39,017 nt of DNA, from the sequence record PZ168289.1, one strand, 5' to 3'. Source of the stretch: a phage. The notes beneath the pieces were generated by a model, which was given only the letters and a program-made list of their open reading frames with translations, ran no database searches and was not told the DNA's origin. Position numbers and translations under genes: made by a program. The stretch's first letter is position 1; every line of letters starts with the position of its first letter. Shown here piece after piece: positions 1-39,017 of this stretch.

Positions 1-2
1 AT

Positions 3-446
3 TTACCCACGGTTAATCTCCTTAGTTGTTACGATGTCTACCGCCCCAGAAACATGCTTGACACGAGAATACCAGTCAAGACCCCAACGCTTGCACTCTT
101 CGTCTATGATGTGCCTGACAGTCTCAAGAACCTTGCGGGAGGACTGCGAGTCACGACGAATAGCGACGATTGAAAGGTCAAGACCGGGAGTCGGTCGGTG
201 CCAAGATGCGGTAGCCAGCATGTAGAGATACGCTACTGGTTGACCTGAGACATCATAGATTGTGTACTCTTCACCCGCGAACTCGTCAGCCATACGGTAA
301 GTATGAGCCTTGAAGTCCTCGAATGACTTGAAGTTAGACTGCCCGTCTTCCCAGAGGCGACAAGCGCACATGTGGCGACCTTCGCGTGAGTTGAGATATG
401 GTAGCATTGTCTTACCCCATGTTGACGCCAGAGGCTCGCATAGCAC
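3..446 (-). CDS. hypothetical protein in gene-7 position (gp7-like virion/host-range protein); 3' end runs off the window start
   Basis: Track ORF open to the window edge; lies directly downstream of the gp6.7-like gene on the coding strand, as gene 7 does in T7; no motif recognised. Confidence 0.4.
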   Translation of the reverse strand: MLCEPLASTWGKTMLPYLNSREGRHMCACRLWEDGQSNFKSFEDFKAHTYRMADEFAGEEYTIYDVSGQPVAYLYMLATASWHRPTPGLDLSIVAIRRDSQSSRKVLETVRHIIDEECKRWGLDWYSRVKHVSGAVDIVTTKEINRG

Positions 447-984: not shown

Positions 985-1007
985 AGTCCCTATAGTGATA
1001 GTTTAGT
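985..1007 (-). promoter_or_regulatory. phage RNAP promoter (gene 6.5 upstream)
   Basis: Plus strand CCTATAGTGATAGTTTAG at 989-1006 = minus 5'-CTAAACTATCACTATAGG-3', same -7..+2 core as T7 CACTATAGG. Confidence 0.75.
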
Positions 1008-2487: not shown

Positions 2488-4655
2488 TAGTGACACTCCT
2501 TCCACGTTGGTCCAATCTTACCTTCGGTATCAAGGACACATTTAAAGTTATAGAACTCACCCACCTTACGCATAGCAAGCTGAGCAATCTTGACTACTTC
2601 TTCAGCAATCTCCTGAGTACGACACGCAATCTGCAATTCATCATGCACCCAAGCCATGTACGCAAAGTCACCTTCCCAGCCGTGAACATACCCGGCCTCT
2701 TCGAGCATACGTTCAGTCTCGACAATCCAGTGCTTACAGACTACCGCACCATCTCCTTGAAGTAAGGCGTTCAGTGCTGAGTGCGGCGACCGGATGTGGA
2801 TACGGCGACCATCAAGTCCACGCAACCAACGGCGTTTCCACTTAACGATATTCTCACCGTCCACCCACTTAGAGTCTGAGATTAACGTATTGCTCACAGC
2901 TTCCCTGAGGTCTTTGATGGCTGGTGTACCCTCAATGAATTTCTTCATGAGAGCTGAACCTTCCTTCTTCCCACCGCCTACTATCAGTCCAATCTTAGCG
3001 GCCCCTGCACCGTACAGGAACGCATAGATGAACGTCTTAGCGTTGTTACGGAAAGCATCATGGTCGTGGCTCGACTTATCGCGTGGGACGTTAGGTGCTA
3101 ACCCAGCGTTTACTGCGTTGGCCCAGTGGATGTCACCTTCGACCACAGTCTTCGCATATGCACCACCATCAAACGGAGCCGCTCTGTTCCCAAGACAACG
3201 AAGCTCAAGACCTGAAGCATCCACACCCACTTGAATCCAAGGGTCTGGCTTACCATCCGTCTTGTTCCAAGCTGCACCGAAAGCACCACGGCAAATCTCA
3301 CCATACGGAGCACCGTTAGCAGGGACCTGAGCCATGTTTGGTGAACTGTGAGTCGCACGTCCGGTTACTGCCCCGCATGGGTTGATTGAACCGTGCATAC
3401 GTCCGTCTGGACCTACAAGTTTCAACCATGCGTTCTTACCTTCAGCCGCCTGACCTATGCGCTTCTGGACTACCAGATACTCACGGACCAGCTCTACGCA
3501 AGCCTGAGCCTCTGCGTCTGGCAACTTAACGTGTTCTAACGTCTCGTCATCGACTACAGGTTTCCCTGTGTCAGTGAAGTCCACAGGCTCCCAGCCCCGC
3601 TCCATCAAGACTTTCGCTAAGTGGTCTCCGCTTCCCGGATTAAACTCAACGTAGGTGATAGGTGTGAACGGTGCTCCCTCCATCGTGTCTCGTGAGTCAA
3701 ACTCGCAAGGCTCCAGACCTAAGCGTTGAGCTTTGTTCTTCGGCTTCTTGAATACTGACCCGACCTTAGGGTACACGACTCGCGGATACTTCGGAAGGTC
3801 CTTGCCTGTCCGTGGGTGCTTGAAGAACTCCTTGCCTCCCTTTGGTGCGTACCAGCTACCGAAAGTCGAACGCAGCTTGTCCAGCAGTTCTGCACGTTTG
3901 ACGGTGAGTTCACGATATAAGCCTTCGACCATCTCGGTGTTCATCGGATAGCCGTTACGCTCCATCTTCGCACAGGTCCACGCAGCATCATGTTCCAGAC
4001 GCAACGCATAAATCTGGTCGAAAGCGAACTGTTCAGACTGGAAGTAATACTTGTCAGTCAGGAACTTCTTGAGCAACGCCAGCGTGACCACAACGTCTTG
4101 AACGTTATAGTCCAGCATCTCCTGAGACGGGAACAACCATTCGTCCCCAGCCTTATATTCGATACCTTCAGCCTTGCACTTGGCAACGTAATCGTGTTTG
4201 TATTCACCTTTCATCTCACCAAGACGATAGCCCCAAGCCTCAAGAGACTGACGTCCCATCATCTTAGGTGGCAGACGGCCAGATTTCACCGCTCCCATGT
4301 CTGAGAACTTAATGTTGGGATACATCAAGCGCCCCAGCACCAAGGTATCAATCATCTTGTGTTTCGGGAAGTTAAAGCGTTTCCCAAAGTACAGACGTTT
4401 CAGCTTGTCAATAGCCGGGACGTCATAATTGATACCGTTGTGGAATACCAGCATACCATCAGGTGATGCGGCAATCTCTTCCACTTTATGCACATACTCT
4501 TTGAAGCCACCGACGATACCGACCATCGGAGCTACCCCGTACTTGAGGGTCTCATTCGACTCGGCGTTAATCAGGACCCCACAGTGAAACTGGGAGACTG
4601 TATCAAGGAGACCGTTGGTCTCGATGTCAGACCCGTATACGTTACTTAAGTCCAT
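2487..4655 (-). CDS. DNA polymerase (T7 gp5-like family A polymerase with 3'-5' exonuclease)
   Basis: Near end-to-end similarity to T7 gp5 (SDIETNGLL, FHNG..YDVPA, DYNVQDVVVT, WVHDE, LDTEGK.GP.W); GGAGGA RBS before ATG 4655. Confidence 0.97.
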   Translation of the reverse strand: MDLSNVYGSDIETNGLLDTVSQFHCGVLINAESNETLKYGVAPMVGIVGGFKEYVHKVEEIAASPDGMLVFHNGINYDVPAIDKLKRLYFGKRFNFPKHKMIDTLVLGRLMYPNIKFSDMGAVKSGRLPPKMMGRQSLEAWGYRLGEMKGEYKHDYVAKCKAEGIEYKAGDEWLFPSQEMLDYNVQDVVVTLALLKKFLTDKYYFQSEQFAFDQIYALRLEHDAAWTCAKMERNGYPMNTEMVEGLYRELTVKRAELLDKLRSTFGSWYAPKGGKEFFKHPRTGKDLPKYPRVVYPKVGSVFKKPKNKAQRLGLEPCEFDSRDTMEGAPFTPITYVEFNPGSGDHLAKVLMERGWEPVDFTDTGKPVVDDETLEHVKLPDAEAQACVELVREYLVVQKRIGQAAEGKNAWLKLVGPDGRMHGSINPCGAVTGRATHSSPNMAQVPANGAPYGEICRGAFGAAWNKTDGKPDPWIQVGVDASGLELRCLGNRAAPFDGGAYAKTVVEGDIHWANAVNAGLAPNVPRDKSSHDHDAFRNNAKTFIYAFLYGAGAAKIGLIVGGGKKEGSALMKKFIEGTPAIKDLREAVSNTLISDSKWVDGENIVKWKRRWLRGLDGRRIHIRSPHSALNALLQGDGAVVCKHWIVETERMLEEAGYVHGWEGDFAYMAWVHDELQIACRTQEIAEEVVKIAQLAMRKVGEFYNFKCVLDTEGKIGPTWKECH

Positions 4656-6929: not shown

Positions 6930-7388
6930 TTAACCACGGTCGGAAGTGACCAGTTCATTGGTAGACAGCCAGCGTTGCAAGTCGAAACTTGGACACGCCT
7001 TAGGTGCTACGTCATGGTGTGCTTTGATTTCTGCCTGAGGATACATGGACTTCAGGTCAGCCAGCTTGTTGCGCAGGGAGTTCATCTGGGCTGTAGTGAA
7101 GTTAGCTTCAAACTGACCCTTAGCGTTGATTCCACCTACAAGGCAGACGCCTACGGACTTGGAGTTCCAGTCCTTAACGTGTGACCCTACGACATTGACT
7201 GGGCGACCCTCTTCCACAGTGCCATCACGTTTGATGATAAAGTGGTAGCCTACGTCCAGCCAGCCTTGCTGCTTGTGCCACATACGGATGGTCTCTACCC
7301 CGATGTCCATCTCTGGCTTGGTAGCCGAACAGTGAACGAAGATAGCGTCAGTCCGGGACCGTGGGTTGAACTGTACCTTACTTACCAT
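6930..7388 (-). CDS. lysozyme / N-acetylmuramoyl-L-alanine amidase (T7 gp3.5-like)
   Basis: Near-identical blocks to T7 lysozyme (DAIFVHCSATKP, WLDVGYHFIIKRDGTVE, GVCLVGGI, APKACPSFDL, ELVTSDRG). Confidence 0.96.
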   Translation of the reverse strand: MVSKVQFNPRSRTDAIFVHCSATKPEMDIGVETIRMWHKQQGWLDVGYHFIIKRDGTVEEGRPVNVVGSHVKDWNSKSVGVCLVGGINAKGQFEANFTTAQMNSLRNKLADLKSMYPQAEIKAHHDVAPKACPSFDLQRWLSTNELVTSDRG

Positions 7389-7848
7389 TGTACACCACCA
7401 ATTCTACGACCACTAGATTCAGGTGCTGGGTGAAGCGCTGTGCGTCCGTGGTGTGCATCTGGAGACGCTTATGGTTGAAGACGTGTGAGTTGCTAATCTT
7501 CACGTAAACTTCTTCAGGCTTTCCGTGGACGATGAACGTCTGGCCTACACCAATCTTGTCGATGGTCAGGACTTCACGCTTCACAGTCACAGGCGGTACG
7601 CTCGAAGCTGGCAGGACTTGCGGTTTATCCTCTACGATTTCCTCAAGATGTTCTTTTAAAACCCACGCCCCCCACATACCGTCAGGCTGAGTGTCATAAC
7701 CTGCTGCTCCGTGTTTGTAGGCTCCACGCTCAGTGGATTCCACCAGAACATGTCCAGACGATGGTACAGGGTCTTTCGCACATTTCGTAACGATAGTACC
7801 TTTAGGCCACCCGTAGCCACTAACCTTAAGTCTATATTTCTGAGTCAT
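7378..7848 (-). CDS. orphan hypothetical protein inserted between endonuclease I and lysozyme
   Basis: 156-aa ORF; AGGAG 7 nt upstream of ATG 7848; start overlaps gp3 stop (TGATG); 3' end overlaps lysozyme start by 11 nt; no recognisable motif; T7 has no gene here. Confidence 0.6.
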   Translation of the reverse strand: MTQKYRLKVSGYGWPKGTIVTKCAKDPVPSSGHVLVESTERGAYKHGAAGYDTQPDGMWGAWVLKEHLEEIVEDKPQVLPASSVPPVTVKREVLTIDKIGVGQTFIVHGKPEEVYVKISNSHVFNHKRLQMHTTDAQRFTQHLNLVVVELVVYNGK

Positions 7849-8300
7849 CACTTAACTCCTTTCTTCTTGGGGATGAGGATACCTGAAGGCAGACGTACAG
7901 TCGCCTCTCGCAGCCACTCAACCGGGATGAACTTATCGGCATACTTATAGCCGTTCTTTTCGCACCATGCGCCATACGTGGTCGGAGACCCCTTGTATAA
8001 CTTGGAGCGGGAACTTGAGAACACGAACCGAATGTCTAACTCAGGGTGCTGTTCTTTAATCAATAGGTGCTTCTTACGGTCTTCCACTGCGAAGATTCCT
8101 TTGGTCTCCACAATTATTCCATTGGGCAATACAAAGTCTGGACAATAACTGTGTAGAGACTGAGGGATTGTGTATGCTATTTTATACATCTCGTATTCAG
8201 CCTTTACGCCATTCTTCTCCAGCCACTCTTGGTTCTTTGCCTCAAGACCAGACCTATATATTCCTACCGAATGTCCCCTGCTTATACTACGTGTAGCCAT
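7848..8300 (-). CDS. endonuclease I (T7 gp3-like Holliday junction resolvase)
   Basis: Strong similarity to T7 gp3 (YRSGLE, PDF.LPNGI.VETKG, DRKKHLLI.EQHPELDIR.VFSSS..KLYKGSPT.YG). Confidence 0.96.
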   Translation of the reverse strand: MATRSISRGHSVGIYRSGLEAKNQEWLEKNGVKAEYEMYKIAYTIPQSLHSYCPDFVLPNGIIVETKGIFAVEDRKKHLLIKEQHPELDIRFVFSSSRSKLYKGSPTTYGAWCEKNGYKYADKFIPVEWLREATVRLPSGILIPKKKGVK

Positions 8301-8731
8301 GTTTCTCTCCTTAGTATCTTACCTATTGTTGGCTGAGACACTCCGTAGATTGTGGCGAGCTGTCGCTGGGTAAGGCCAGAAGACCTAATTTCCTTGACTT
8401 TAGTATCAGTAAGTTTAGACATACCGCACTTCTCTCCCGGAACATGAGGAGGGTTTACACCGCGCCCCTTGTTACGCATGTCCTGAAGGTTATCCCTTTG
8501 GGTTCCTACAGTTAGATGCTCAGGGTTACAACATAGCGGAGTGTCACAAGTGTGTAGTAGAACACCATTTGGTTCTTCACCTGTAATCAGCTCGTAGGCT
8601 ACACGATGGGCAAGCATGGTTTTCCCATTATGCCTAATCTGACTGTAGCCATTGTTGTTAACGCAGCCAGTGAAAAGCCAGCAGCTACCCGAAACCCTGA
8701 GTCGCTGCTTGAGGCTTTCTATTGTAGCCAT
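8282..8731 (-). CDS. HNH homing endonuclease (copy 1 of 3)
   Basis: Cys-rich HNH motif (CW.FTGC, LAHRVAYEL, HTCD.PLCCNPEHL) plus C-terminal HTH-like tail; start overlaps SSB stop, end overlaps gp3 start. Confidence 0.85.
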   Translation of the reverse strand: MATIESLKQRLRVSGSCWLFTGCVNNNGYSQIRHNGKTMLAHRVAYELITGEEPNGVLLHTCDTPLCCNPEHLTVGTQRDNLQDMRNKGRGVNPPHVPGEKCGMSKLTDTKVKEIRSSGLTQRQLATIYGVSQPTIGKILRRETWLHVV

Positions 8732-18549: not shown

Positions 18550-20316
18550 CTAGTGGAACGTAACGTATGACCCTAGTCCTAGCTCGTCGTCCGTATCGTG
18601 AGTTACCCTGACCCCATTGTCCCAGAACTCGGTGTGGATGGACTCGAAGCCTTTCCGTGGGTTCTCCATCTGTTCCTCCAGCCACTCCTCAGTGACTTCG
18701 CGTTCGCCTTTGTTGGCATCCTTAGCCATAGACTCAACGAAGAACTGTACACCGATAGCCAGAGCATCAAGTCGGTCATCGTGTGCCAAGGCTCCACGCT
18801 CACGAGAGATACGGGTCATCTGGTAGAAGAGAGAGTAGATAGGGTTACGAACGCCATCCTTATCAGAGGCTGTCTGGTAGTCTTGGACGATAGCAGCAGC
18901 GTTAACGATAAGTCGGTGAGACCCCATGATAGGCTCCAGAACGTCACAGATGCGGAGTTCTTTCTGACCCTTACTCTTCACTTCAGTTACAGCCGCAGGA
19001 TGGATACGGGCCGCTACAGGCTTGAATAGCTCAAGGTACATACCATCACCGAAGTTACCCTCAATGACGTATTCGTTGACCTTCCACTTACGACCAATCT
19101 TAGCCAAGGCTTCCAACGTAGAGTCTTCATAACCGCCACGCATACCACCCACTTCCATAGCGAAGATGTAGCCGTTGAGCTGATACAGTACCGCATAACC
19201 AGTTTCATCCTTACCACGACCACTAGGGTCAATGACCAGAATCTTCTGGGTGTACGAACTGAAGGCAGAACCTACAGTCTGATACGTGTGGTACGAGTCA
19301 CCCATGAGTCCAACGTTAGGAACGTCCTCACGCTTGTTCTGAGGGTTCGGCAACCATTGGTAGACCATTGGACTGGACGCTGGGTCCAAGTCGGCTACGA
19401 TAAGGTCACGGAGCTTCAGAGGGTACTTCTCTGCATCACTCAGGTTAGGGTTAAGCATGAACTGTAGCGCGAAGCCAGCTTTACCGTAAGATAGCTCACG
19501 TTCCTTAAGGTCAGTATCATCGAAGCGTACTTCATCAGTCGGACGCCAGTAGAAGGACTCAGGGTCCTCTTCCAGCTCTGCCTGAAGCATAGGAGCCAGA
19601 CGGTCGCCGTAAGACTGCCAGTCCTTCCTGTCGCGTGGATACCGAGCTGGCCAGATAGTAGTGGTATACCCACGACCTTCCAACTCACGATACAGGGTCA
19701 TCTCGTTCTGAGGAGTGCCCAGATAGATGATTGCACCTCCCGGCTTCAGGATAGCGTCGAACTCTTTCACAAGCTCTGACAGTCGGTCTCGCGCAGCCTG
19801 AGTCGCAGAGTTGTTAGGAACCTCCACGTCATCGGCAATCAGGATGTCAGCACGACTACCAGTCAACTGACCAGTGATGCCAACGGACTTAACCGAAGGT
19901 GAGTGGTCTGGCTTGGCTGGCCCAACGTCGAAGCTGATAACTGCATCTCGCTGTCCCTGCTTAGGTTTGAGTTCCTGAAGCTGAGGCATGAGGTCGATGA
20001 TTCGCTTGATGAATATGGAGTTAGCATCGGCTCGTTCCTTTGAGGCCGACACAATCATGAACTTCAAGTCTGGGTTGTTCCATAGTTTCCAGACCACGAA
20101 ACCACAGGTCAGAAACGACTTGCCAATACCACGGAACGCCTGAAGGATGAAGCGGCGATTATCCCCAGCAGCAAGCTTCTTACACATATCTATCTGGCAG
20201 CGGGTTGGAACCGGAAGGCTAAGAGCTTTCCAGAGAACGAAGATGAAGAACACGAAGTCGTCCCTCATCCTTTGGGTCATTTCTGCCTGTCTTTCCACAG
20301 GTGTTTTCTTAGACAT
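18550..20316 (-). CDS. terminase large subunit (T7 gp19-like)
   Basis: Collinear with T7 gp19 ([81 protein letters not shown]); GGAGGG RBS. Confidence 0.97.
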
Positions 20317-26400: not shown

Positions 26401-27361
26401 CGTATGTCAGAGGGTCTACACCAGCACCAATCACACCAGCAGCTAACTGAGCACCAGTCCCAGCCTTGGCCTTCTCTTGGTCCAACTTCTGGTTCTCAAG
26501 CGCCAAGTTGATAAGCTCGGTCAGGTTCTGAGGTGAGCCACCAGTAATGACTCCGTAATACTGGGGCAGAACCCCAGCGTTACGAATCTGGTCCAGCTCC
26601 TCACGAGCCCACTTATGGTTGTTCCAGCGGGTCGGGTTGAACACATCGCCAATGACATCAAGTGAGTCCTCAGTCTGACCAGCGCGGATAGCCACGCCGA
26701 CCATAGAGTTCTTCACTTCGGCTTCTGTAGCCGCACCAAAACCGAACCACGTAGAGCGACCCTCTCGTTCCTGCATGGTCTCGCCAGTAGACTTATAGAA
26801 CATCTCACCGAACGATTCGTTGGGAGCTTCAGGTGCTTGACCCTCAATGTTAAGACCAGCAGCGGTCGGAAGGTTCTCACCCAGAGCTACTTTAGGTTTA
26901 GCCTTGAGTCCTTCCGTGAGTGCGTCAAATACGTTAGCGCTTACTGGTGGAGTCTTTGGGCTAATGCCATTGAGTGCTCGTGCGACTCCCTTCTGATAGA
27001 CTTCAGGGTCGTACCGGGAGCCTGTCTCATGGAAGCTGATAGCTTGAGCCAGAGAAGACAGGGTGTCAGGGTCCGATAGGTCGAGGCTCTGGGTAGCTGG
27101 AATACCAGTTGCAGCCACCACTGAGTCAATATAAGACTTAGTATCGTTCTCGTTAGGAGGTGCCCATCGGTTGATAATCTTCTCGATGGAGTCATAACCT
27201 TGGCGACCGTAGGACAGCAGGTTTTTACCTAAAGCTCGGACGCCAGACTCTGGGCTATCAAATATTACAAACTCCCCATCATCACCAATAGCTCCTTCCC
27301 ATTGGTCCTTAGACTTACGTATATTTCCAGGGTTCGAATTTCTTATGCCACGTGTTGCCAT
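23474..27361 (-). CDS. internal virion protein D with N-terminal lytic transglycosylase domain (T7 gp16-like)
   Basis: 1295 aa; long collinear similarity to T7 gp16 (PTRWN.H.W, GAGVDPL.YVP, MRLEARETARN, VRSPTGMQSG, GTYVPHVY, AYGISH..QF, NNSFLEARNLFDSD); AAGGAG RBS. Confidence 0.96.
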   Translation of the reverse strand: MATRGIRNSNPGNIRKSKDQWEGAIGDDGEFVIFDSPESGVRALGKNLLSYGRQGYDSIEKIINRWAPPNENDTKSYIDSVVAATGIPATQSLDLSDPDTLSSLAQAISFHETGSRYDPEVYQKGVARALNGISPKTPPVSANVFDALTEGLKAKPKVALGENLPTAAGLNIEGQAPEAPNESFGEMFYKSTGETMQEREGRSTWFGFGAATEAEVKNSMVGVAIRAGQTEDSLDVIGDVFNPTRWNNHKWAREELDQIRNAGVLPQYYGVITGGSPQNLTELINLALENQKLDQEKAKAGTGAQLAAGVIGAGVDPLTYVPIAGQVGKGGKLVNKMFTVAAQSGALAGVSEMARTSVAGGDAHVAEAILGGALFGGGMTAIADGLGRALGRNTNEFAGPATRLEARETARNVDGQDLSRLPIQEGEQTFSHQGVKFADVPNEPGSVRLEDGSILIGENPLNPKTRQVFDEVIEPERAAAGVNLGGLTEIGLKLLRSENPEIRGVAADLVRSPTGMQSGSSGKIGTTASDVFERLRAVDHRLYNDIDDAVTEALKDPYFQTAFWRDSGAFRQDIYQRVSMAIEDGSGNLKAELTPGELKVYDLLKNQFDAKREMMENPAMFGRPDAQSIFPGSRFKGTYVPHVYSKQMKELYIKELGSPEALQEAIKKSWLTSYASRPEVKKRVDEALLEADPTLTPEGLAAAVDKYANDKAYGISHTEQFERSSVMEENINGLVGLENNSFLEARNLFDSDMSIVLPNGQTFSVNNLREWDMDKIVPAYNRRVNGDIAIMAGAGKTTKEMKDLVETMMNKAGDDGKLKGEVSTLRDTLKILTGRARRDGADDAAFATVMRTMTDLSFFAKNAYMGVQNLTEIGGMLARGNVRAMLHGVPIFRDLAFRNKKVGASEIKDLHNVIFGKELDDSIRPSKQDVIDRLRSYSDLGRGTATALGTAKYYTGELAVRSPFTKVLNGTTNYLLDAGRQGFLSDIVEHSLTGSKRKFDDRWLKTAGISDEQWKGIKSLIRESVTRGPDGKYTIKDKKAFSQDPRAMDLWRMGDTIADETLLRPHKLSNMDAKAYGPLAKTVLQFKNFVIKSINGRTMRTFYNATKNNRAMDAALSTVMSMGLAGIYYMAQAHVKAYAMQDGRDREYLKQALDPTMIGYAALSRSSHLGGPLGVANILGGIAGYEDTKMLRSSILPRSPTEQPERAIAYGAATSDPVMNVVGNFLEQVPAFGYAANVGASAYNLAGYLKADTRVNERDYMTGMYNTFRELVPNDPITQKLLLGTFEEQGIHIKN

Positions 27362-27792
27362 GTCTTTCTCCTTAAGATATTTCTAATAGAAACCGTACTC
27401 ACTCCATAGGAGCTAGCTAGGAATGAAACCTTTAGGTCGCTAGACCGTATGTTCTTCACATCAGTCTCTGTCAATTTGGACACTCCTATTGAGCTTCCAG
27501 ACGCTTGACGACCTCTTTCCACCTTGTCTCTAATGTTGTCAGCCTGAGTTCCGGCCTCAAGATGGTCAGGGTTTATGCAGGACGGATTGTCGCACTTATG
27601 GCGTACAACATACCCTTCAGGTATAGGACCACTGGCAAGCTCATAAGCTAGTCGATGTGCTCTATACTTAACTCTGTTAATCATTATCTGACCGTAACCG
27701 TCAGAATCTACGGTCCCAGTGAATCGGATACAGCCAGAGCTTTCAGCTACTGACAATTCTGCCAGTCTCTCACTGGCTGTCCCGTTCTTCAT
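27343..27792 (-). CDS. HNH homing endonuclease (copy 2 of 3)
   Basis: HNH motif (C..FTG, AHRLAYEL, HKCDNPSCINPDHL) plus HTH-like tail; start set to ATG 27792 with AAGGAG RBS (track 27810); 3' end overlaps the first codons of gp16. Confidence 0.85.
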   Translation of the reverse strand: MKNGTASERLAELSVAESSGCIRFTGTVDSDGYGQIMINRVKYRAHRLAYELASGPIPEGYVVRHKCDNPSCINPDHLEAGTQADNIRDKVERGRQASGSSIGVSKLTETDVKNIRSSDLKVSFLASSYGVSTVSIRNILRRKTWQHVA

Positions 27793-27796
27793 TATG

Positions 27797-30079
27797 TTAC
27801 TCCTTACCAATTAGTACGTTTGCGATACCCTCCAGTGAGACGTCATTATACATCCCACCGCGCTTCTCGATGTCGGCCTCTCGGTCAGCTCGACGTTTAT
27901 CACCAGCAGCTTTAGTCCCGACGATACGCGCTCGCTTGTTAGCGTCACGTTCTGCCTGAGCGTATGCGGCATCCTGTGCCTTCTGCTGTTGTTCGCGGTA
28001 GAGTTTACCTACAAGTTCTTTATCGTAGCGAATACGAATAGTCCCTGTAGCGTCTTGGAGGAAGATAGAGCCGTTCTGTTCAACAACGGACAACTGAGAG
28101 TTCACTACCCAAGGGTTGGCCTTAATGAGCTGCTTACGGGCGGTGTCGATAATGTCTCGACCTACCTGCCACGACTCAGGGTTATCCCCGACCATGAGCT
28201 GGTGCTTGGACACCATGCCGATGGACTTACCGTCAGAGCCTTCAGACTGGAACGTTACGGTATTTTCATTCAGCCATCGTTGAGTCTGCTGAGTTGCAGC
28301 GTCAGCGTTACCTGTACGATAGTACCATGAGTCCCAGACCTTACGAGCACTTGAGTCCAGAGACGTAGGAAGACGCGAAAGGTCCTTATTCCGAGAGTCG
28401 TTCTTCAACTCCTGCCACGCCTTGTCTGACTCCATGCGCATCTCACGGCTTTGACTTGCAGCTTGCTTATCAGCTTCAATCATCGTCTGAGGGTCCAGAC
28501 CCATCTTGTCCATCTGGTCGAACGTAGAGAACAACTGAGCTTGGTCAGGATACAGAGCAGCGAAACTTGAAGGGTCCTGAGTGTAGGCACGACGCAGTGA
28601 CTCGAAGCGTTTCATCTTGTCTGGGTCGTACTGTCCACGGATGACCGCAGCTTGCCACTCACCAGCAGCGTCCTGAGTCAGCGTCTGGAAGGCATTACGG
28701 AACGGACCGTTGTTAGTGTCAGCTCTTAACAATGCCACCTTCTGAGCGTCTTTAGCGGCCTCAGGGATGTCCATCTGGTCAATCTGCTGTAGCTTGGCAG
28801 ACGCATAGTTGTTCATGTCAGAACGCTTGAACTCGCCTGTAGCATCTGAGACCGGAAGGTCCTCATAGTTGGTGGACACGTTGTCACCAGCCAGCCGCCG
28901 CTGATATACTTGGTCTATGACCAGTTGCTTGTTCTGGGTCTGGATTAACTTAGTGTTCTCCTTAGCCTGTTCAGCGGACTTACGCTTGACCGCTTCCAGT
29001 AAGCTGGCTTCGGCATTAATAAGCATCTGACGCTGAGGCGTTAGTTCTTCACCGGGTTGAAGCAGGTTGTTCTGCTCCTTGAGTTTCTGAATCTGGGCAA
29101 GACCAATGGTTGGGTCGTCCTGAAGAATCGCAGACTGAACGCCTAACGCCAAGTCTTCCTGATACTTAGCAACCAGTTTATACTCAGTACCTTGGGCCTC
29201 AACCATAGCAGCATTGAAGACGTCAGGTCCTACAATCTCTTCGACGGTAGCGTCAACACCGTTAAGTGTGATACGCTCGCCACGGACTTGCTGTAGGAAG
29301 TTTGAGCCTCCTGACTTCTGGATTGCGTCACGGACCGTCTGGGTGATGACCTCTCGTGCTCTCTGGTCCGAAGGTATAGCAGCAGTCGTCAGTCCATCAC
29401 GAAGGTAGGCCATGAAGGTCTTTCCAGACTCAGGCGAACGCATCAGGTCCCCATCGTTAAGGAACGAGTTCATCTCAATACGAGTGTTCAACATTGCTGT
29501 CTCTTCAGACTGCTTGCTGAAATACTTATTGAATGACCCGTATATAGCGATGTTTCTGTCCGTGATGTTATCGTTGAATCCACGCTGGAAGAACTCGTCG
29601 GTAGGGTTAATACCCGCCTCTTCAGCATAGGACTTAGCGGCATCCTGAAGTCGCTGGTGGCGATACTCTTCCATGTCCTGACGTGTTCGGAACTCACCGT
29701 TCTGAATCTTAACGTTAATCTCGTCATCCACCGCAAAGGCAGCGTTACGACCAGTCTTGACTCGAAGTGCTTCCATAGCGTAAGGGTCATCCTGATACAG
29801 CAATGTGCCGTTCTGGATAGCCTCACGTCTCTGCTGAGGTGTCAACTTACGGATAATCTCGTTAGACCGCTCGTCAGCTCTGGTCTTCTCCTCGTCCTTG
29901 AACTGCTTGTACAATCCAGTCCCAGACTCAACGAAGTTGGTTAACGCACGAGCCAGACCGGAGTCACCAGTCGGAGCCTGAACGTTTGCTGCTTGATAGT
30001 TGACGGCGATAGTTTTACCCGGCGCTCTGCCACGACCCATAGTCCGATTAGCAAGAGCTGATTCAATATTACTAGCCAT
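27797..30079 (-). CDS. internal virion protein C (T7 gp15-like)
   Basis: Collinear with T7 gp15 (DERSNEIIRKLTPQQRREA.QNGTLLYQDDPYAMEALRVKTGRNAA, EEYRH.RLQ, IRYDKEL). Confidence 0.93.
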   Translation of the reverse strand: MASNIESALANRTMGRGRAPGKTIAVNYQAANVQAPTGDSGLARALTNFVESGTGLYKQFKDEEKTRADERSNEIIRKLTPQQRREAIQNGTLLYQDDPYAMEALRVKTGRNAAFAVDDEINVKIQNGEFRTRQDMEEYRHQRLQDAAKSYAEEAGINPTDEFFQRGFNDNITDRNIAIYGSFNKYFSKQSEETAMLNTRIEMNSFLNDGDLMRSPESGKTFMAYLRDGLTTAAIPSDQRAREVITQTVRDAIQKSGGSNFLQQVRGERITLNGVDATVEEIVGPDVFNAAMVEAQGTEYKLVAKYQEDLALGVQSAILQDDPTIGLAQIQKLKEQNNLLQPGEELTPQRQMLINAEASLLEAVKRKSAEQAKENTKLIQTQNKQLVIDQVYQRRLAGDNVSTNYEDLPVSDATGEFKRSDMNNYASAKLQQIDQMDIPEAAKDAQKVALLRADTNNGPFRNAFQTLTQDAAGEWQAAVIRGQYDPDKMKRFESLRRAYTQDPSSFAALYPDQAQLFSTFDQMDKMGLDPQTMIEADKQAASQSREMRMESDKAWQELKNDSRNKDLSRLPTSLDSSARKVWDSWYYRTGNADAATQQTQRWLNENTVTFQSEGSDGKSIGMVSKHQLMVGDNPESWQVGRDIIDTARKQLIKANPWVVNSQLSVVEQNGSIFLQDATGTIRIRYDKELVGKLYREQQQKAQDAAYAQAERDANKRARIVGTKAAGDKRRADREADIEKRGGMYNDVSLEGIANVLIGKE

Positions 30080-35829: not shown

Positions 35830-36714
35830 CTACAGGCTTGAGGCAGCTACCTTAGCGCGAACTTCCATCGTGTACTTAGCGTCACGCAGGTATCGCGGGT
35901 CACTCATAGCCTTAATCATGTCAGCCTTGGAGCTGAATGCTTCGGTCTGAGGAGCCTTAGGTGCGACCACAGGTTTAGCCTGAGTGGTGATGGTACGCTG
36001 AGGTTTAACACCCACAGCTTTACCCAGAGTCTTGCCAGCCAGATTCAGCAGAGCTTTGGTAGTCGCAATGTCCTTACGAACGATAGCAGCTTCCAGTGCC
36101 TCACGAGTTGACGGGTCGTTTGACTCAAGGTGTGACAGGATGCGATTAAACTGTTCAGCACCACCAGCGTAGCGAACCACACCAGCAGCATACTGTTCAG
36201 CCAGAGCTTCCTGACCACGGACAAACGAATCTACGAAACGCTTGGTGTAACCTGCTTCCTGCAACTTAGCGTAGGATGCGTCAGACAGCTTACCGTCCTT
36301 GGCGTATTCAGCCTTGATAGCGGTAATTTCATCAGCAGTGACCTTGCCAGCTTCTACAGCAGAAGACACCATGTCGTCAAATGCAGCTTCGTTTTCATCC
36401 AGAGCGGTGACACTTTCGGTCAACTCTTTCGGTGCATCACCCAGTTCGATGAACTCAGGCTGCTCACCATCGGTCTCAGACTCTTCGTCATCTGACTCGT
36501 GGTCTTCTTCACCTTCAGTCTCCTCGACGTTATCGTCTTCTTCGGTCGCCTCTTCGTTTTCGGCTTCCAGTTGCTTGAAGGTAATAGCGTCATCGCCATC
36601 ACGAACAGCTACGTCCTGTTCAAGCATAGACTTTTGGTGTTCGTTCAGGTCCTCAACGGAACCAGTGATTGCATTAGAGCTAACGCCGAACTCGGCATAA
36701 ACTGATTGAGACAT
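35830..36714 (-). CDS. capsid assembly/scaffolding protein (T7 gp9-like)
   Basis: 294 aa, highly acidic, between portal and capsid genes, downstream of promoter 36793-36815. Confidence 0.88.
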   Translation of the reverse strand: MSQSVYAEFGVSSNAITGSVEDLNEHQKSMLEQDVAVRDGDDAITFKQLEAENEEATEEDDNVEETEGEEDHESDDEESETDGEQPEFIELGDAPKELTESVTALDENEAAFDDMVSSAVEAGKVTADEITAIKAEYAKDGKLSDASYAKLQEAGYTKRFVDSFVRGQEALAEQYAAGVVRYAGGAEQFNRILSHLESNDPSTREALEAAIVRKDIATTKALLNLAGKTLGKAVGVKPQRTITTQAKPVVAPKAPQTEAFSSKADMIKAMSDPRYLRDAKYTMEVRAKVAASSL

Positions 36715-36792
36715 TAAGTCATTCTCCTTTAAGTTGATTATAGGAACCGACCGGGAGTCTCACCCGGCCTAATGCTTTGCGAATCTTGTCTA

Positions 36793-36815
36793 AGTTCCTA
36801 TAGTGATAGTTTAGG
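36793..36815 (-). promoter_or_regulatory. phage RNAP promoter (scaffold upstream)
   Basis: Perfect core at 36797-36814; contains the portal TAA stop; leader has hairpin CCGGG-AGTCTCA-CCCGG (36751-36767). Confidence 0.75.
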
Positions 36816-38379
36816 CTTGAGCCATGTCCTCACCAGCTCCCTGACCTACAGCAGCGCCCATGTTAGCACCAGCAGCAGACGCACCGTTGACCACAGCTCC
36901 TTGAGTGGATTGTTCAGCCATACGTTGCAGCTTCTCGTCCTGAGTCAGCAGTAGACCAGCGGTGTCAATGCCTAAGGCATTCAGCAGTCGCAGCTTCAGG
37001 GTCGGCAAGTTAATGTCTGGGTCCTGTTGCAGAGGCTGTAGCCCGGTCATCATGTTGACTGCCTGAGTCAACTTCTCTAAGTCTTGACCACGACCTAACG
37101 CTTCCAGACCAGTGGAGACCGTAGGCTCTACCGCTTCTTTCGGAAGGTCAGGAATCATGCCAGCAGACTGAAGTTGGTTCATCAGCACACGGACGATAGG
37201 TAACTGAAGCTCTTGTGACTGTACTGAGTACACGCCACCTAAGGTCGCCTCCAGTTCGCCAGCAACATAACGAATCTCTTCAGCAGTGACTCGCTCGGCA
37301 TTACGCTGAACAGCACTATTAAGAAGGAAGGCCCAGCCTAAACGTTGCTCGATAGCATCAGCCACCGACTTGGCAATCGTAAAGTCCTGACCTTTCGTCA
37401 GTTGAAGGAAGTTGATGTCCTCAACGCGACCAGCCACGAACTCACCTGTAGCCGCCTTGTTCAGACGACGAGGTTGCGTGATACCGTTCGGGTTAACGAG
37501 GCCCACCACCTTGGAGGCTACCTTAGCCATTTTGGTGATAGCTTCTGTAATCGTCTCCAGCGAGTTCAGGTCTCCCAGATACTCCTCGCAGTAAGAACGA
37601 CCATAGTCTTCACCATCCAGTCGAACCATTCGCACCGGGATGTACGGACAGGCAGTCAGTGGGTAAGAACCCTCGGTCCCTGCTACCTCAATTCCTTCCA
37701 CTTCCTCGTATCGCAGATACTCGTCGTCCTGACGGTAGATGTGCGTATATACTTCCAGCTCGGTGTCAGGCTCATAGTCGTCTGCGTTGAGTTGTGACTT
37801 CACGTCTTCCGGTAGAGCACTAAACGCTACCTTGTCGAGAGTCACAATCTGCAAGATATTACCGAAAGCATCACGTTGAACAACGTAGGACACTAAGCGG
37901 TACATTCGCATAGGACTGTAAGTACCCTGTTCAGGCTCTGGAATGTATAGCAGACAGTTACCGGAGACGATAAGCTGCTTCAGAGCTTCGAACAATGGCA
38001 CGCGGAAACTGTTAGTCTCCATGTAGGCCATCAACACACGCTCGACCATAGCAAGCCCTTCGTCAACACGAGCAGCAGCCTCTGAGTCCTGACTCAAGGT
38101 CTTGGCCTCATATTCGGAGACTGTCAGTCGCATCCACGGTGACTGAGGGAATAACGCCAACATCAGCTTTGCAGCCAAGTTGTTCAAACAGCGAGCACCT
38201 ACAGCTTGCCACGGCGTCACGTATTCCGTAGAGGAGTTGTCTGACTCCTTGGGAAATAGCGAGGGGATGGTCACGGCAGCGCAGTTCTGTGCGCGGGTCT
38301 CGTAAGGCTGTCGTCCGTTCTTCAATCTATCATAAACTGACTTCGCGCCTTCAGCAGCAAATCCTTCACGTTCAGCCAT
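36811..38379 (-). CDS. portal (head-to-tail connector) protein (T7 gp8-like)
   Basis: Collinear with T7 gp8 (GAKSVY.RLKN.R.PYETRAQNCA, IPSLFPK.SDN.ST.Y.TPWQAVGAR.LNNLA.KLMLALFP, RLDGE.YGRSY.EEYLGDL, RVTAEEIRYVA.ELE.TLGGVYS). Confidence 0.97.
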   Translation of the reverse strand: MAEREGFAAEGAKSVYDRLKNGRQPYETRAQNCAAVTIPSLFPKESDNSSTEYVTPWQAVGARCLNNLAAKLMLALFPQSPWMRLTVSEYEAKTLSQDSEAAARVDEGLAMVERVLMAYMETNSFRVPLFEALKQLIVSGNCLLYIPEPEQGTYSPMRMYRLVSYVVQRDAFGNILQIVTLDKVAFSALPEDVKSQLNADDYEPDTELEVYTHIYRQDDEYLRYEEVEGIEVAGTEGSYPLTACPYIPVRMVRLDGEDYGRSYCEEYLGDLNSLETITEAITKMAKVASKVVGLVNPNGITQPRRLNKAATGEFVAGRVEDINFLQLTKGQDFTIAKSVADAIEQRLGWAFLLNSAVQRNAERVTAEEIRYVAGELEATLGGVYSVQSQELQLPIVRVLMNQLQSAGMIPDLPKEAVEPTVSTGLEALGRGQDLEKLTQAVNMMTGLQPLQQDPDINLPTLKLRLLNALGIDTAGLLLTQDEKLQRMAEQSTQGAVVNGASAAGANMGAAVGQGAGEDMAQA

Positions 38380-38782
38380 CTACGTGCCTCCATGTTTTAC
38401 CTGTTAATACGTCAGACAGCGTTCTCCTAGCTACTCCCGGATATGCAGAGGTAAGCTCTGTCGCTGTTAGCCCTGACTTTCGTATGGACTTAACATCTTC
38501 GGCTGTTAGCTTTGAGTTGTAATGGCTGTCACTATGTGGAGCGTTCTTTCTACCTTTGGAAACACAGTCTACCATGTTATCGCTATAAGTACCAACGCTC
38601 AGGTGTTCGGGATTGACGCATAGTCTATTGTCGCAGGCATGCATCACCACTAGACCTTCTGGTATGGGACCTTTGTGTTTTAGGTAGGACACTACATGCG
38701 CTCCACGCAGCTTGCCTGCATACCACTTCAGGCCATATCCAACATTATTTACGCAGCCCTTATGCAGTATGCAGTCTGTCAT
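38372..38782 (-). CDS. HNH homing endonuclease (copy 3 of 3)
   Basis: HNH motif (GCVNN.GYG, HACDNRLCVNPEHL) plus HTH-like tail; start overlaps gp7.3 stop, 3' end overlaps portal start by 8 nt. Confidence 0.85.
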   Translation of the reverse strand: MTDCILHKGCVNNVGYGLKWYAGKLRGAHVVSYLKHKGPIPEGLVVMHACDNRLCVNPEHLSVGTYSDNMVDCVSKGRKNAPHSDSHYNSKLTAEDVKSIRKSGLTATELTSAYPGVARRTLSDVLTGKTWRHVDG

Positions 38783-39017
38783 ATAGAAATACCGCCACCA
38801 GAGGTACGAGAGACCTGAAGGCTACGCTTACCGGAACGCTTCACTTTCTTATCGTCAGATGCGGTCGCTTCGGTATCCACATCTTCCACTTTGTCGTTCG
38901 GTACTTCCACTGGTGCTGCTGGGGTCTGAGCCTCAACAACCTTAGGTGCCTCGTCCTTACCGAGACCAACTGTCCCCAGCGCATTATTCACCACCTTCTT
39001 GAAGGCTTTACTGATTG
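38779..39017 (-). CDS. gp7.3-like tail protein, 5'-truncated at window end
   Basis: C-terminus KRSGKRSLQVSRTSGGGISI matches the T7 gp7.3 C-terminus (...KKSLSVARSSGGGINI); reading frame is open to position 39017, track M is a GTG. Confidence 0.8.
   Translation of the reverse strand, partial: ISKAFKKVVNNALGTVGLGKDEAPKVVEAQTPAAPVEVPNDKVEDVDTEATASDDKKVKRSGKRSLQVSRTSGGGISI

What the first reader, a model, noticed from the sequence alone, without database searches (positions are those of the whole stretch)
38372..38782. HNH homing endonuclease copy 3, in the gene 7.7 position upstream of portal
Third paralog, overlapping the gp7.3 stop and the portal start. Together with copies 1 and 3 it shows repeated invasion by one endonuclease family.
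Basis: partly seen in the sequence, partly recalled or inferred. Interest (0 to 1): 0.45.

Follow-up and report, generated by a model that had tools for sequence, protein, structure and literature searches.

The report
Gene 7.7-type HNH homing endonuclease gene
This is an ordinary, already annotated selfish endonuclease gene of the T7 gene 7.7 family, wedged between the tail-assembly gene 7.3 and the portal gene of a K1F-like coliphage; close relatives carry it, carry broken remnants of it, or lack it.

Summary
A 136-aa ORF lies at 38372..38782 on the minus strand. It shares ATGA with the gp7.3 stop and 8 nt (ATGGCTGA) with the portal start. It passes Pfam HNH_3 (E 6e-14). Its AlphaFold model is closest to I-HmuI. 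The catalytic His48 and Asn69 and a Cys/Cys/Cys/His set are invariant in homologues, and a C-terminal helix-turn-helix follows.

It is 47% identical to T7 gp7.7, in the same position, and 98.5% identical to the annotated HNH endonuclease of phage ST31. Two paralogues (45% identity to it, 52% to each other) lie at the gene 2.8 position and between genes 15 and 16.

Across 35 Kayfunavirus junctions the site holds:
- this allele, intact: 7
- either of two other 7.7 alleles: 6
- independently deleted remnants of this allele: 2
- nothing: 20

The gene is under strong purifying selection (dN/dS about 0.05), is lower in GC than its flanks, and is more diverged at synonymous sites than the portal gene. 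The first 170 nt of the portal gene are linked to endonuclease presence, with one exception (Penshu1).

This is already known biology and of low interest.

The parts
38372..38782 (-). Free-standing HNH homing endonuclease gene (gene 7.7 homologue), 136 codons plus stop
   Evidence: ORF. Pfam HNH_3 E 5.8e-14. PHROG 6254 E 6.7e-28. 98.5% identical to ST31 HNH endonuclease. 47% identical to T7 gp7.7.
38549..38782 (-). N-terminal nuclease domain (residues 1-78): beta strands plus a beta-beta-alpha His-Me finger. Contains catalytic His48 and Asn69 and the putative zinc ligands Cys4, Cys50, Cys55 and His60. The Pfam HNH_3 match covers residues 27-71 (38570..38704).
   Evidence: C4, Y16, H48, C50, C55, H60, T65 and N69 are invariant in a 50-sequence alignment. 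The profile alignment puts H48 and N69 on I-HmuI H75 and N96. The AF2 model has pLDDT above 95 over residues 11-70. Foldseek hits are I-HmuI, I-PpoI and SMAD MH1.
38390..38515 (-). C-terminal three-helix (helix-turn-helix) DNA-binding domain, residues about 90-131
   Evidence: AF2 helices at 94-103, 107-113 and 119-127. The family profile matches HTH proteins (8tac E 0.0019) and the HTH part of I-HmuI. An HTH is annotated in the CR44b 7.7 homologue.
38779..38782 (-). ATGA overlap: the gp7.3 stop (TGA) and the endonuclease start (ATG). This is the left boundary of the inserted gene.
   Evidence: Sequence. Filled/empty alignment.
38372..38379 (-). ATGGCTGA overlap: the portal start codon and the endonuclease stop
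38387..38391 (-). GGAGG Shine-Dalgarno for the portal gene, 7 nt before its ATG, encoded within endonuclease codons Trp131-Arg132
   Evidence: Sequence. The same 12-14 nt are retained in remnants and in three empty sites. Annotated as the portal RBS in Penshu1 and Pipis.
36811..38379 (-). Portal (gene 8) gene, immediately downstream
   Evidence: Pfam Head-tail_con E 1.5e-97.
38779..39017 (-). gp7.3 gene, 3' 239 nt. Its first 10 nt (GTGGGTAAAT) are at window 10..1, because the window is a circular permutation.
   Evidence: Pfam VirionAssem_T7. Window ends read. The 82-aa gp7.3 of relatives is.
38325..38347 (-). Portal nt 33-55: a cluster of 9 mostly synonymous substitutions whose haplotype is linked to endonuclease presence
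   Evidence: 14 of 15 endonuclease-bearing junctions against 5 of 20 empty junctions carry it, Fisher p 9e-5.
38215..38227 (-). Portal nt 153-165: a second linked substitution cluster (includes Val54/Thr54)
38457..38462 (-). GACAGA, direct repeat of 38775..38780. The 318 nt between the two copies are deleted in frame in Salmonella phage Seyj3-1.
38442..38448 (-). CTGCATA, direct repeat of 38761..38767. 319 nt between the copies are deleted in Dickeya phage Monomax.

Best explanation
This is a free-standing homing endonuclease gene of the T7 gp7.7/gp2.8 family, inserted between gene 7.3 and the portal gene of a Kayfunavirus.

Shown here: the protein has an I-HmuI-like architecture. It has an N-terminal His-Me finger nuclease (general base His48, metal ligand Asn69, a Cys4/Cys50/Cys55/His60 zinc site) and a C-terminal helix-turn-helix. 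The gene is co-transcribed with genes 6.5 to 8 from the phage promoter at 987-1002(-). It is probably translated at a low level by coupling to gp7.3 through ATGA. Its last codons supply the portal's Shine-Dalgarno sequence.

Inferred: during mixed infection with a relative that lacks the gene, the enzyme nicks or cuts that relative's DNA at a specific site. The site is either across the empty 7.3/8 junction or within the first 170 nt or so of the portal gene. Recombinational repair from the endonuclease-bearing genome then copies the gene and adjacent portal sequence into the recipient. After that the gene is maintained, decays or is lost.
For: Fold and catalytic residues:
- HNH_3 passes the Pfam cut-off.
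- The profile hits I-HmuI over both domains, with H48 on H75 and N69 on N96.
- The AF2 model has pLDDT 89, and its best PDB match is I-HmuI (probability 0.99), then I-PpoI.
- C4, H48, C50, C55, H60 and N69 are invariant in 50 homologues.

Family and position:
- It is 47% identical to T7 gp7.7 and 43% to gp2.8, in the same slot as T7 7.7.

Mobility signature:
- The site is polymorphic in 35 junctions whose portal proteins are 94% or more identical where measured: 7 with this allele, 3 CR44b-type, 3 of a third type, 2 remnants and 20 empty.
- Two independent internal deletions between 6-7-nt repeats are present.
- Synonymous divergence is about 0.93 in the endonuclease against 0.26 in the portal gene for the same genome pair. 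GC is 47.4% against 52.6%.
- Linkage of portal nt 31-168 to endonuclease presence gives Fisher p 9e-5. There is none on the gp7.3 side.

Functional protein: dN/dS is about 0.05.

Dispensable: T7 lacking 2.8, 3.8 and 7.7 is viable (bioRxiv 10.1101/2025.09.07.674715), and gp7.7 is deleted in a T7 chassis phage (PMC12153263).
Against: - No cleavage activity, target site or super-Mendelian inheritance has been shown for this protein, and my searches found none for T7 gp7.7 or gp2.8.
- The residue before the catalytic His is Met47, not the Asp74 of I-HmuI.
- Phage Penshu1 carries an intact copy next to the 'empty-type' portal haplotype. Those portal clusters therefore cannot be an obligatory immunity allele.
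- The linkage test is not corrected for shared ancestry.
- dN/dS of 0.05 is stronger constraint than expected for a purely selfish gene that cycles through decay.
Confidence: 0.8

Rival explanations
1. The gene is kept mainly because it benefits the phage. It could exclude co-infecting relatives (interference competition), or it could blunt a host defence that senses DNA ends, as reported for T7 endonucleases and GAPS4. Homing would then be secondary. This overlaps with the best explanation and does not exclude it.
For: - Purifying selection is very strong: dN/dS about 0.05 at synonymous divergence about 0.9.
- The bioRxiv preprint 10.1101/2025.09.07.674715 reports that wild-type T7 outcompetes T7 lacking 2.8, 3.8 and 7.7 only when GAPS4 is present. 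It also reports that catalytically dead T7 gp3.8 still attenuates GAPS4.
- Interference competition by a phage intron endonuclease is reported in PMC11620839.
Against: - 20 of 35 close relatives do without any gene at this site, and two carry decayed copies.
- The preprint tested gp3.8, a different HNH family (22% identity), and only tested 7.7 as part of a triple deletion.
- Nothing in the window bears on host defence.
Confidence: 0.15
2. It is a packaging-associated HNH protein, like HK97 gp74, that works with terminase and portal in genome maturation.
For: It sits directly upstream of the portal gene and is translationally linked to it.
Against: - It is absent from 20 of 35 phages whose portal proteins are 94% or more identical where measured.
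- It is not adjacent to the terminase gene, which lies at 18550-20316.
- It belongs to Pfam HNH_3 and carries an HTH, with no match to PF01844.
- Paralogues sit at unrelated places in the genome.
- T7 gp7.7 is dispensable.
Confidence: 0.02
3. It is a catalytically dead relic, retained only as a DNA-binding protein or because its 3' end carries the portal ribosome-binding site.
For: - Remnants and three empty sites keep the last 12-90 nt, including GGAGG.
- Asp74 of I-HmuI is not conserved.
Against: - The whole ORF is intact in 7 genomes with dN/dS about 0.05.
- Catalytic His48 and Asn69 and all four putative zinc ligands are invariant.
- Most empty sites have their own Shine-Dalgarno sequence, GGAGGTGACGA.
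Confidence: 0.03

Closest known systems
Bacteriophage T7 gene 7.7 product (NP_041994, 'HNH endonuclease') and its paralogue gp2.8
   Same: Same genomic slot between 7.3 and 8. 47% and 43% identity over the full length. Same two-domain layout, the same invariant C/H/N residues and the same C-terminal TW(R)H motif. Non-essential in T7.
   Different: A diverged allele. In T7 the gene ends 1 nt into gene 8. Here it overlaps gene 8 by 8 nt and gene 7.3 by 4 nt.
HNH endonuclease of Escherichia phage ST31 (YP_009790643), with orthologues in GA2A, Ro45lw, Pipis and Penshu1
   Same: The same gene at the same junction, with 98.5% (ST31) to 89% amino-acid identity.
   Different: Two amino-acid differences from ST31 (V14A, A49S). 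ST31 lacks the window's other two paralogues.
I-HmuI (PDB 1U3E), the intron-encoded HNH nicking homing endonuclease of Bacillus phage SPO1
   Same: Best structural match over the whole length and the best nuclease hit of the sequence profile. It has an N-terminal beta region, an HNH motif with the same His-to-Asn spacing of 21 residues, and a C-terminal HTH.
   Different: About 21% identity. I-HmuI is intron-encoded and has no Cys/His zinc site, and it has Asp before the catalytic His. The window protein is free-standing, shorter (136 against 174 aa) and carries an I-PpoI/SMAD-MH1-like Cys3His motif.
Free-standing homing endonucleases of T-even phages (Seg and Mob families), and F-TslI/I-TslI of T3-like phages (from my own knowledge)
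   Same: Intergenic insertion between conserved genes, sporadic distribution among relatives, and linkage of flanking markers consistent with co-conversion.
   Different: Seg proteins are GIY-YIG enzymes. For those enzymes the cleavage sites and marker exclusion have been measured. Here nothing has been measured.

Membership tests
Pfam HNH_3 (PF13392) / His-Me finger nucleases | Sequence match above the curated gathering score | tested here: met
   51.9 bits against a cut-off of 24.8, E 5.8e-14, residues 27-71 covering profile positions 2-46 of 46.
Pfam HNH_3 (PF13392) / His-Me finger nucleases | Catalytic His (general base) and the Asn metal ligand of the beta-beta-alpha-Me motif are present | tested here: met
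   H48 and N69 are invariant in 50 homologues. They align to I-HmuI H75 and N96 (residues counted from the printed alignment). The roles of H75 and N96 come from my own knowledge of the I-HmuI structure paper.
Pfam HNH_3 (PF13392) / His-Me finger nucleases | Beta-beta-alpha fold | tested here: met
   The AF2 model has strands 45-48 and 61-64 followed by helix 66-75, with pLDDT about 95. Foldseek hits are I-HmuI (probability 0.99) and I-PpoI (0.97).
Pfam HNH_3 (PF13392) / His-Me finger nucleases | Structural zinc site (Cys/His ligands) | tested here: inconclusive
   C4, C50, C55 and H60 are invariant, and there is a sub-threshold hit to zf-His_Me_endon (20.2 bits against 27). Metal binding itself is not testable here.
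T7 gp7.7/gp2.8 family of phage endonucleases | Full-length homology to T7 gp7.7 and gp2.8 | tested here: met
   47% and 43% identity over the whole length.
T7 gp7.7/gp2.8 family of phage endonucleases | Position between gene 7.3 and gene 8 | tested here: met
Homing endonuclease gene (functional class) | Sporadic presence or absence at one precise site between conserved flanks in close relatives | tested here: met
   Of 35 junctions, 13 are filled (three alleles), 2 hold remnants and 20 are empty.
Homing endonuclease gene (functional class) | Modular nuclease plus sequence-specific DNA-binding domain | tested here: met
   A C-terminal three-helix HTH.
Homing endonuclease gene (functional class) | Site-specific cleavage of the allele that lacks the gene | not testable with these tools
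   No biochemical data for this family were found.
Homing endonuclease gene (functional class) | Biased inheritance with co-conversion of flanking markers | tested here: inconclusive
   Portal nt 31-168 are linked to endonuclease presence (p 9e-5), with no linkage upstream. The test is not corrected for phylogeny, and Penshu1 is an exception.
Packaging-associated HNH proteins (HK97 gp74 type) | Conserved in all close relatives and adjacent to the terminase genes | tested here: not met
   Absent in 20 of 35 relatives. The terminase gene is 18 kb away.

The most novel reading that the evidence does not exclude
The gp7.7-type endonucleases may not be merely selfish. The very strong purifying selection, together with three different alleles sitting at one junction next to the same recoded portal 5' haplotype, would fit a weapon-and-immunity pair. 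In that reading the enzyme cuts the 5' end of the portal gene of competing phages. The recoded patches at portal nt 33-55 and 153-165 would protect carriers, and the protein might additionally shield DNA ends from host defences such as GAPS4.
Probability: 0.15. Interest if true: 0.45.

Novelty: already known. Interest (0 to 1): 0.12.

Why it matters
It matters little beyond correct annotation. The gene marks a recombination and mosaicism boundary in K1F-like phages, several of which are therapy candidates. It is dispensable, so the site can take engineered payloads, as has been done at T7 7.7. The set of filled, swapped, decayed and empty sites is a compact natural example of the homing-endonuclease life cycle. 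It also gives concrete candidate target sequences for a family (gp7.7/gp2.8) for which my searches found no biochemical study.

Tried and rejected
- A single-sequence phmmer search against PDB gave nothing. Only the family profile reached I-HmuI.
- Rfam found no RNA family in 36000-39017.
- Sigma-70 promoter and terminator scans were at chance level. The plus-strand ORFs overlapping the gene (for example 38289-38522) are antisense artefacts with no support.
- I looked for linkage between endonuclease presence and the upstream gp7.3 sequence and found only background.
- I tested whether the portal nt 31-57 substitution cluster is exceptional. It holds 9 differences where about 2 are expected against the closest empty genome. 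However, a denser cluster exists at portal nt 1469, and the clustering is not significant against more diverged empty genomes.
- The idea that the two portal clusters are an obligatory self-immunity allele was weakened by Penshu1, which has an intact gene with the empty-type haplotype.
- The packaging-HNH and dead-relic readings were rejected (see rivals).
- None of the more distant T3/T7-like IMG/VR loci (L026-L072) had a 7.7 homologue upstream of the portal gene, so they gave no donor candidate.
- Searches were input errors.

Full report
**What the window is.** The window is a complete genome of a T7-like phage of the genus Kayfunavirus (K1F group). It is written as the reverse complement and is circularly permuted. 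Megablast of 24 kb gives about 93% identity to many Escherichia Kayfunavirus records. All long ORFs lie on the minus strand in T7 gene order. The minus strand ends at window position 1 with ...AACCGTGGGTAAAT and resumes at 39017 with CAATCAGTAAAGCC. Gene 7.3 is therefore split across the window ends.

**The observation.** The ORF at 38372..38782(-) is real. It has an ATG start and 136 codons.
- Its ATG forms ATGA with the gp7.3 stop.
- Its TGA lies in portal codons 2-3, giving an 8-nt overlap ATGGCTGA.
- The neighbours are gp7.3 (Pfam VirionAssem_T7) and the portal (Head-tail_con, E 1.5e-97).
- The protein passes Pfam HNH_3 (51.9 bits, cut-off 24.8) and matches PHROG HNH endonuclease families (best E 6.7e-28).
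- tblastn of the protein against the window finds exactly two paralogues, at 8288-8683(-) and 27349-27732(-), at 47% and 44% identity.
- The first paralogue lies between the gp2.5 SSB and endonuclease I, which is the T7 gene 2.8 slot. The second lies between internal virion proteins gp15 and gp16.

**What the protein is.**
- T7 gp7.7 and gp2.8 align over the full length at 47% and 43% identity. T7 gp3.8 and gp5.3 do not.
- In a 50-sequence alignment of database homologues, C4, Y16, H48, C50, C55, H60, T65 and N69 are invariant.
- A profile of seven family members reaches I-HmuI (1U3E) across both domains. It places H48 on I-HmuI H75 and N69 on N96, with the same 21-residue spacing. Its C-terminal third matches helix-turn-helix proteins.
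- The AlphaFold model (mean pLDDT 89) has a beta-beta-alpha core and three C-terminal helices.
- The model's best PDB matches are I-HmuI (probability 0.99, 140 columns), then I-PpoI and SMAD MH1 domains, which are zinc-bearing His-Me finger folds.
- The protein is therefore an I-HmuI-like modular enzyme with an added Cys3His site. Activity itself is not shown.

**Evidence that the gene is mobile.** The same gene (89-98.5% amino-acid identity) is present in only 8 of the 251 phage records that match this region. Most of the other matching records align as two pieces that skip it.

I read the junction in 35 Kayfunavirus genomes (23 IMG/VR loci, 11 GenBank records and the window). The portal protein is 94% or more identical in the 23 IMG/VR loci. 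The states found were:
- 7 carry this allele intact.
- 3 carry the CR44b-type 7.7 allele (44% identity).
- 3 carry a third allele (38% identity).
- 2 carry internally deleted remnants of this allele.
- 20 are empty. Most have the spacer GGAGGTGACGA between the gp7.3 stop and the portal ATG.

The two remnants are independent events:
- Salmonella phage Seyj3-1 lost 318 nt in frame between two GACAGA repeats.
- Dickeya phage Monomax lost 319 nt between CTGCATA repeats.

Three empty sites (L006, PH1061, SD6) have the spacer GGAGG(C/A)ACGTAG. This is the same as, or one base from, the last 12 nt of the endonuclease gene. They may be loss scars or the ancestral recipient type, and I cannot tell which.

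The gene has its own history. Synonymous divergence between the window/ST31 and GA2A/Pipis subtypes is about 0.93, against 0.26 for the adjacent portal gene. GC is 47.4% against 52.6%. All three paralogues are below the genome's 49.9% GC.

**The gene is functional.** dN/dS between the two subtypes is 0.04-0.06, and every catalytic and zinc residue is kept.

**The other two copies.** They are sporadic too. The same allele is present in 4 of 221 records for the 2.8-slot copy and in 21 of 219 for the 15/16 copy. ST31, the closest relative at the 7.7 site, lacks both. The three copies are 45-52% identical to each other and about as far from T7 gp7.7.

**Expression context.** The phage-promoter motif ACTATCACTATAGGGA occurs 11 times on the minus strand, against 0.33 expected. 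The nearest copy upstream is at 987-1002 (before gene 6.5, across the window junction). The next is at 36795-36810, after the portal gene. The endonuclease gene is therefore part of the 6.5-to-8 transcript.
- Only a weak GGTGGCGG lies 9 nt before its ATG, so translation is probably coupled to gp7.3 (inference).
- The portal's GGAGG (38387-38391) is formed by endonuclease codons Trp131-Arg132.

**Where it might cut.** Mutual information between endonuclease presence and nucleotide state peaks in portal nt 31-60 and 151-180. It falls to background beyond about nt 200. There is no signal in gp7.3.
- Genomes with the endonuclease carry GGCGCGAAGTCAGTTTATGATAGATTG and ACGGAATACGTGACGCCG.
- Most empty genomes carry GGAGCCAAAGCGGTCTATGACCGACTG and ACTGAGTACACAACTCCG.
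- The first haplotype is found in 14 of 15 endonuclease-bearing junctions and in 5 of 20 empty ones (Fisher p 9e-5, not corrected for ancestry).
- The stretch between the clusters (nt 60-120) is shuffled independently of endonuclease status.
- The pattern fits one-sided co-conversion, or target-site recoding, on the portal side.
- Penshu1 has an intact gene directly abutting the empty-type portal haplotype from nt 18 onward. The clusters are therefore not required for carriers.
- An equally good alternative is that the recognition site spans the empty junction and is destroyed by insertion.
- I rate the placements as junction-spanning about 0.4, portal 5' end about 0.35, and elsewhere about 0.25. 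All are inference.

**Comparison with what is known.**
- T7 genes 2.8, 3.8 and 7.7 are treated as homing endonucleases. They can all be deleted together (bioRxiv 10.1101/2025.09.07.674715), and gp7.7 is deleted in a T7 chassis phage (PMC12153263).
- The Penshu1 and Pipis records already note the similarity of this gene to T7 2.8 and 7.7. CR44b annotates both its 7.7 and its 15/16 copy as predicted homing endonucleases.
- I found no paper reporting a cleavage site for gp7.7 or gp2.8.
- The packaging-HNH reading fails: the gene is missing from most close relatives and lies far from the terminase gene.
- A benefit to the phage cannot be excluded. It could be interference competition or attenuation of GAPS4, as reported. 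It would help explain the strong purifying selection.

**Verdict.** This is a known gene of a known kind in a known position. Interest is low.

Noticed in passing
window 1-10 and 38779-39017 (minus strand): The window is a circular permutation of a whole phage genome of about 39 kb. Gene 7.3 is split across the window ends: GTGGGTAAAT at 10..1 continues at 39017. T7-like genomes are linear with terminal repeats, so this is an assembly or permutation artefact and the terminal repeat is collapsed.
   Followed up: partly
L074 (Salmonella phage Seyj3-1) and L075 (Dickeya phage Monomax), immediately upstream of the portal gene: Both carry unannotated remnants, 93 and 92 nt long, of this endonuclease gene. 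Independent deletions of 318 and 319 nt between 6-7-nt direct repeats made them. The Seyj3-1 remnant is still an in-frame 30-codon ORF ending inside the portal start.
   Followed up: yes
L078 (Escherichia phage Penshu1), portal nt 18-170: This is the only genome with an intact copy of the endonuclease gene next to the portal haplotype typical of empty sites. Its endonuclease also has extra amino-acid changes (N12S, A22S, K24R, P82Q, T127I) compared with its closest relatives. It may be a recent recombinant or a copy under relaxed constraint.
   Followed up: partly
window 27343-27810 (minus strand): The endonuclease paralogue between gp15 and gp16 is listed from a TTG that overlaps the end of gp15. 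An ATG at 27792-27790, 5 nt after the gp15 stop, is the more likely start (149 aa). CR44b annotates its homologue as '7.7C'. About 21 of 219 related records carry this allele.
   Followed up: partly
window 8282-8731 (minus strand): The endonuclease paralogue in the T7 gene 2.8 slot shares 1 nt with the SSB stop and overlaps the endonuclease I start by 19 nt, much like T7 2.8/3. Only 4 of 221 related records carry this allele. Others have a different HNH allele or none.
   Followed up: partly
window 7378-7851 (minus strand): A 157-aa ORF lies between endonuclease I and the amidase/lysozyme gene. It matches only PHROG 16385 (unknown function, E 1e-93). T7 has no gene in this slot.
   Followed up: no
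window, minus strand: 987, 6674, 9472, 10344, 12102, 15166, 18435, 23458, 31165, 35808, 36795: There are eleven copies of the phage RNA polymerase promoter core ACTATCACTATAGG (0-3 mismatches; 0.33 expected by chance). Four perfect copies lie before late-gene blocks.
   Followed up: partly
L003 (CR44b) 3062-3095 and window 38372-38405: The window-type and CR44b-type 7.7 alleles are only 44% identical as proteins. Yet they share an identical 3' end (GGTAAAACATGGAGGCACGTAGATGGCTGA). This suggests allele replacement by recombination within this stretch, or constraint from the portal translation-initiation region.
   Followed up: partly
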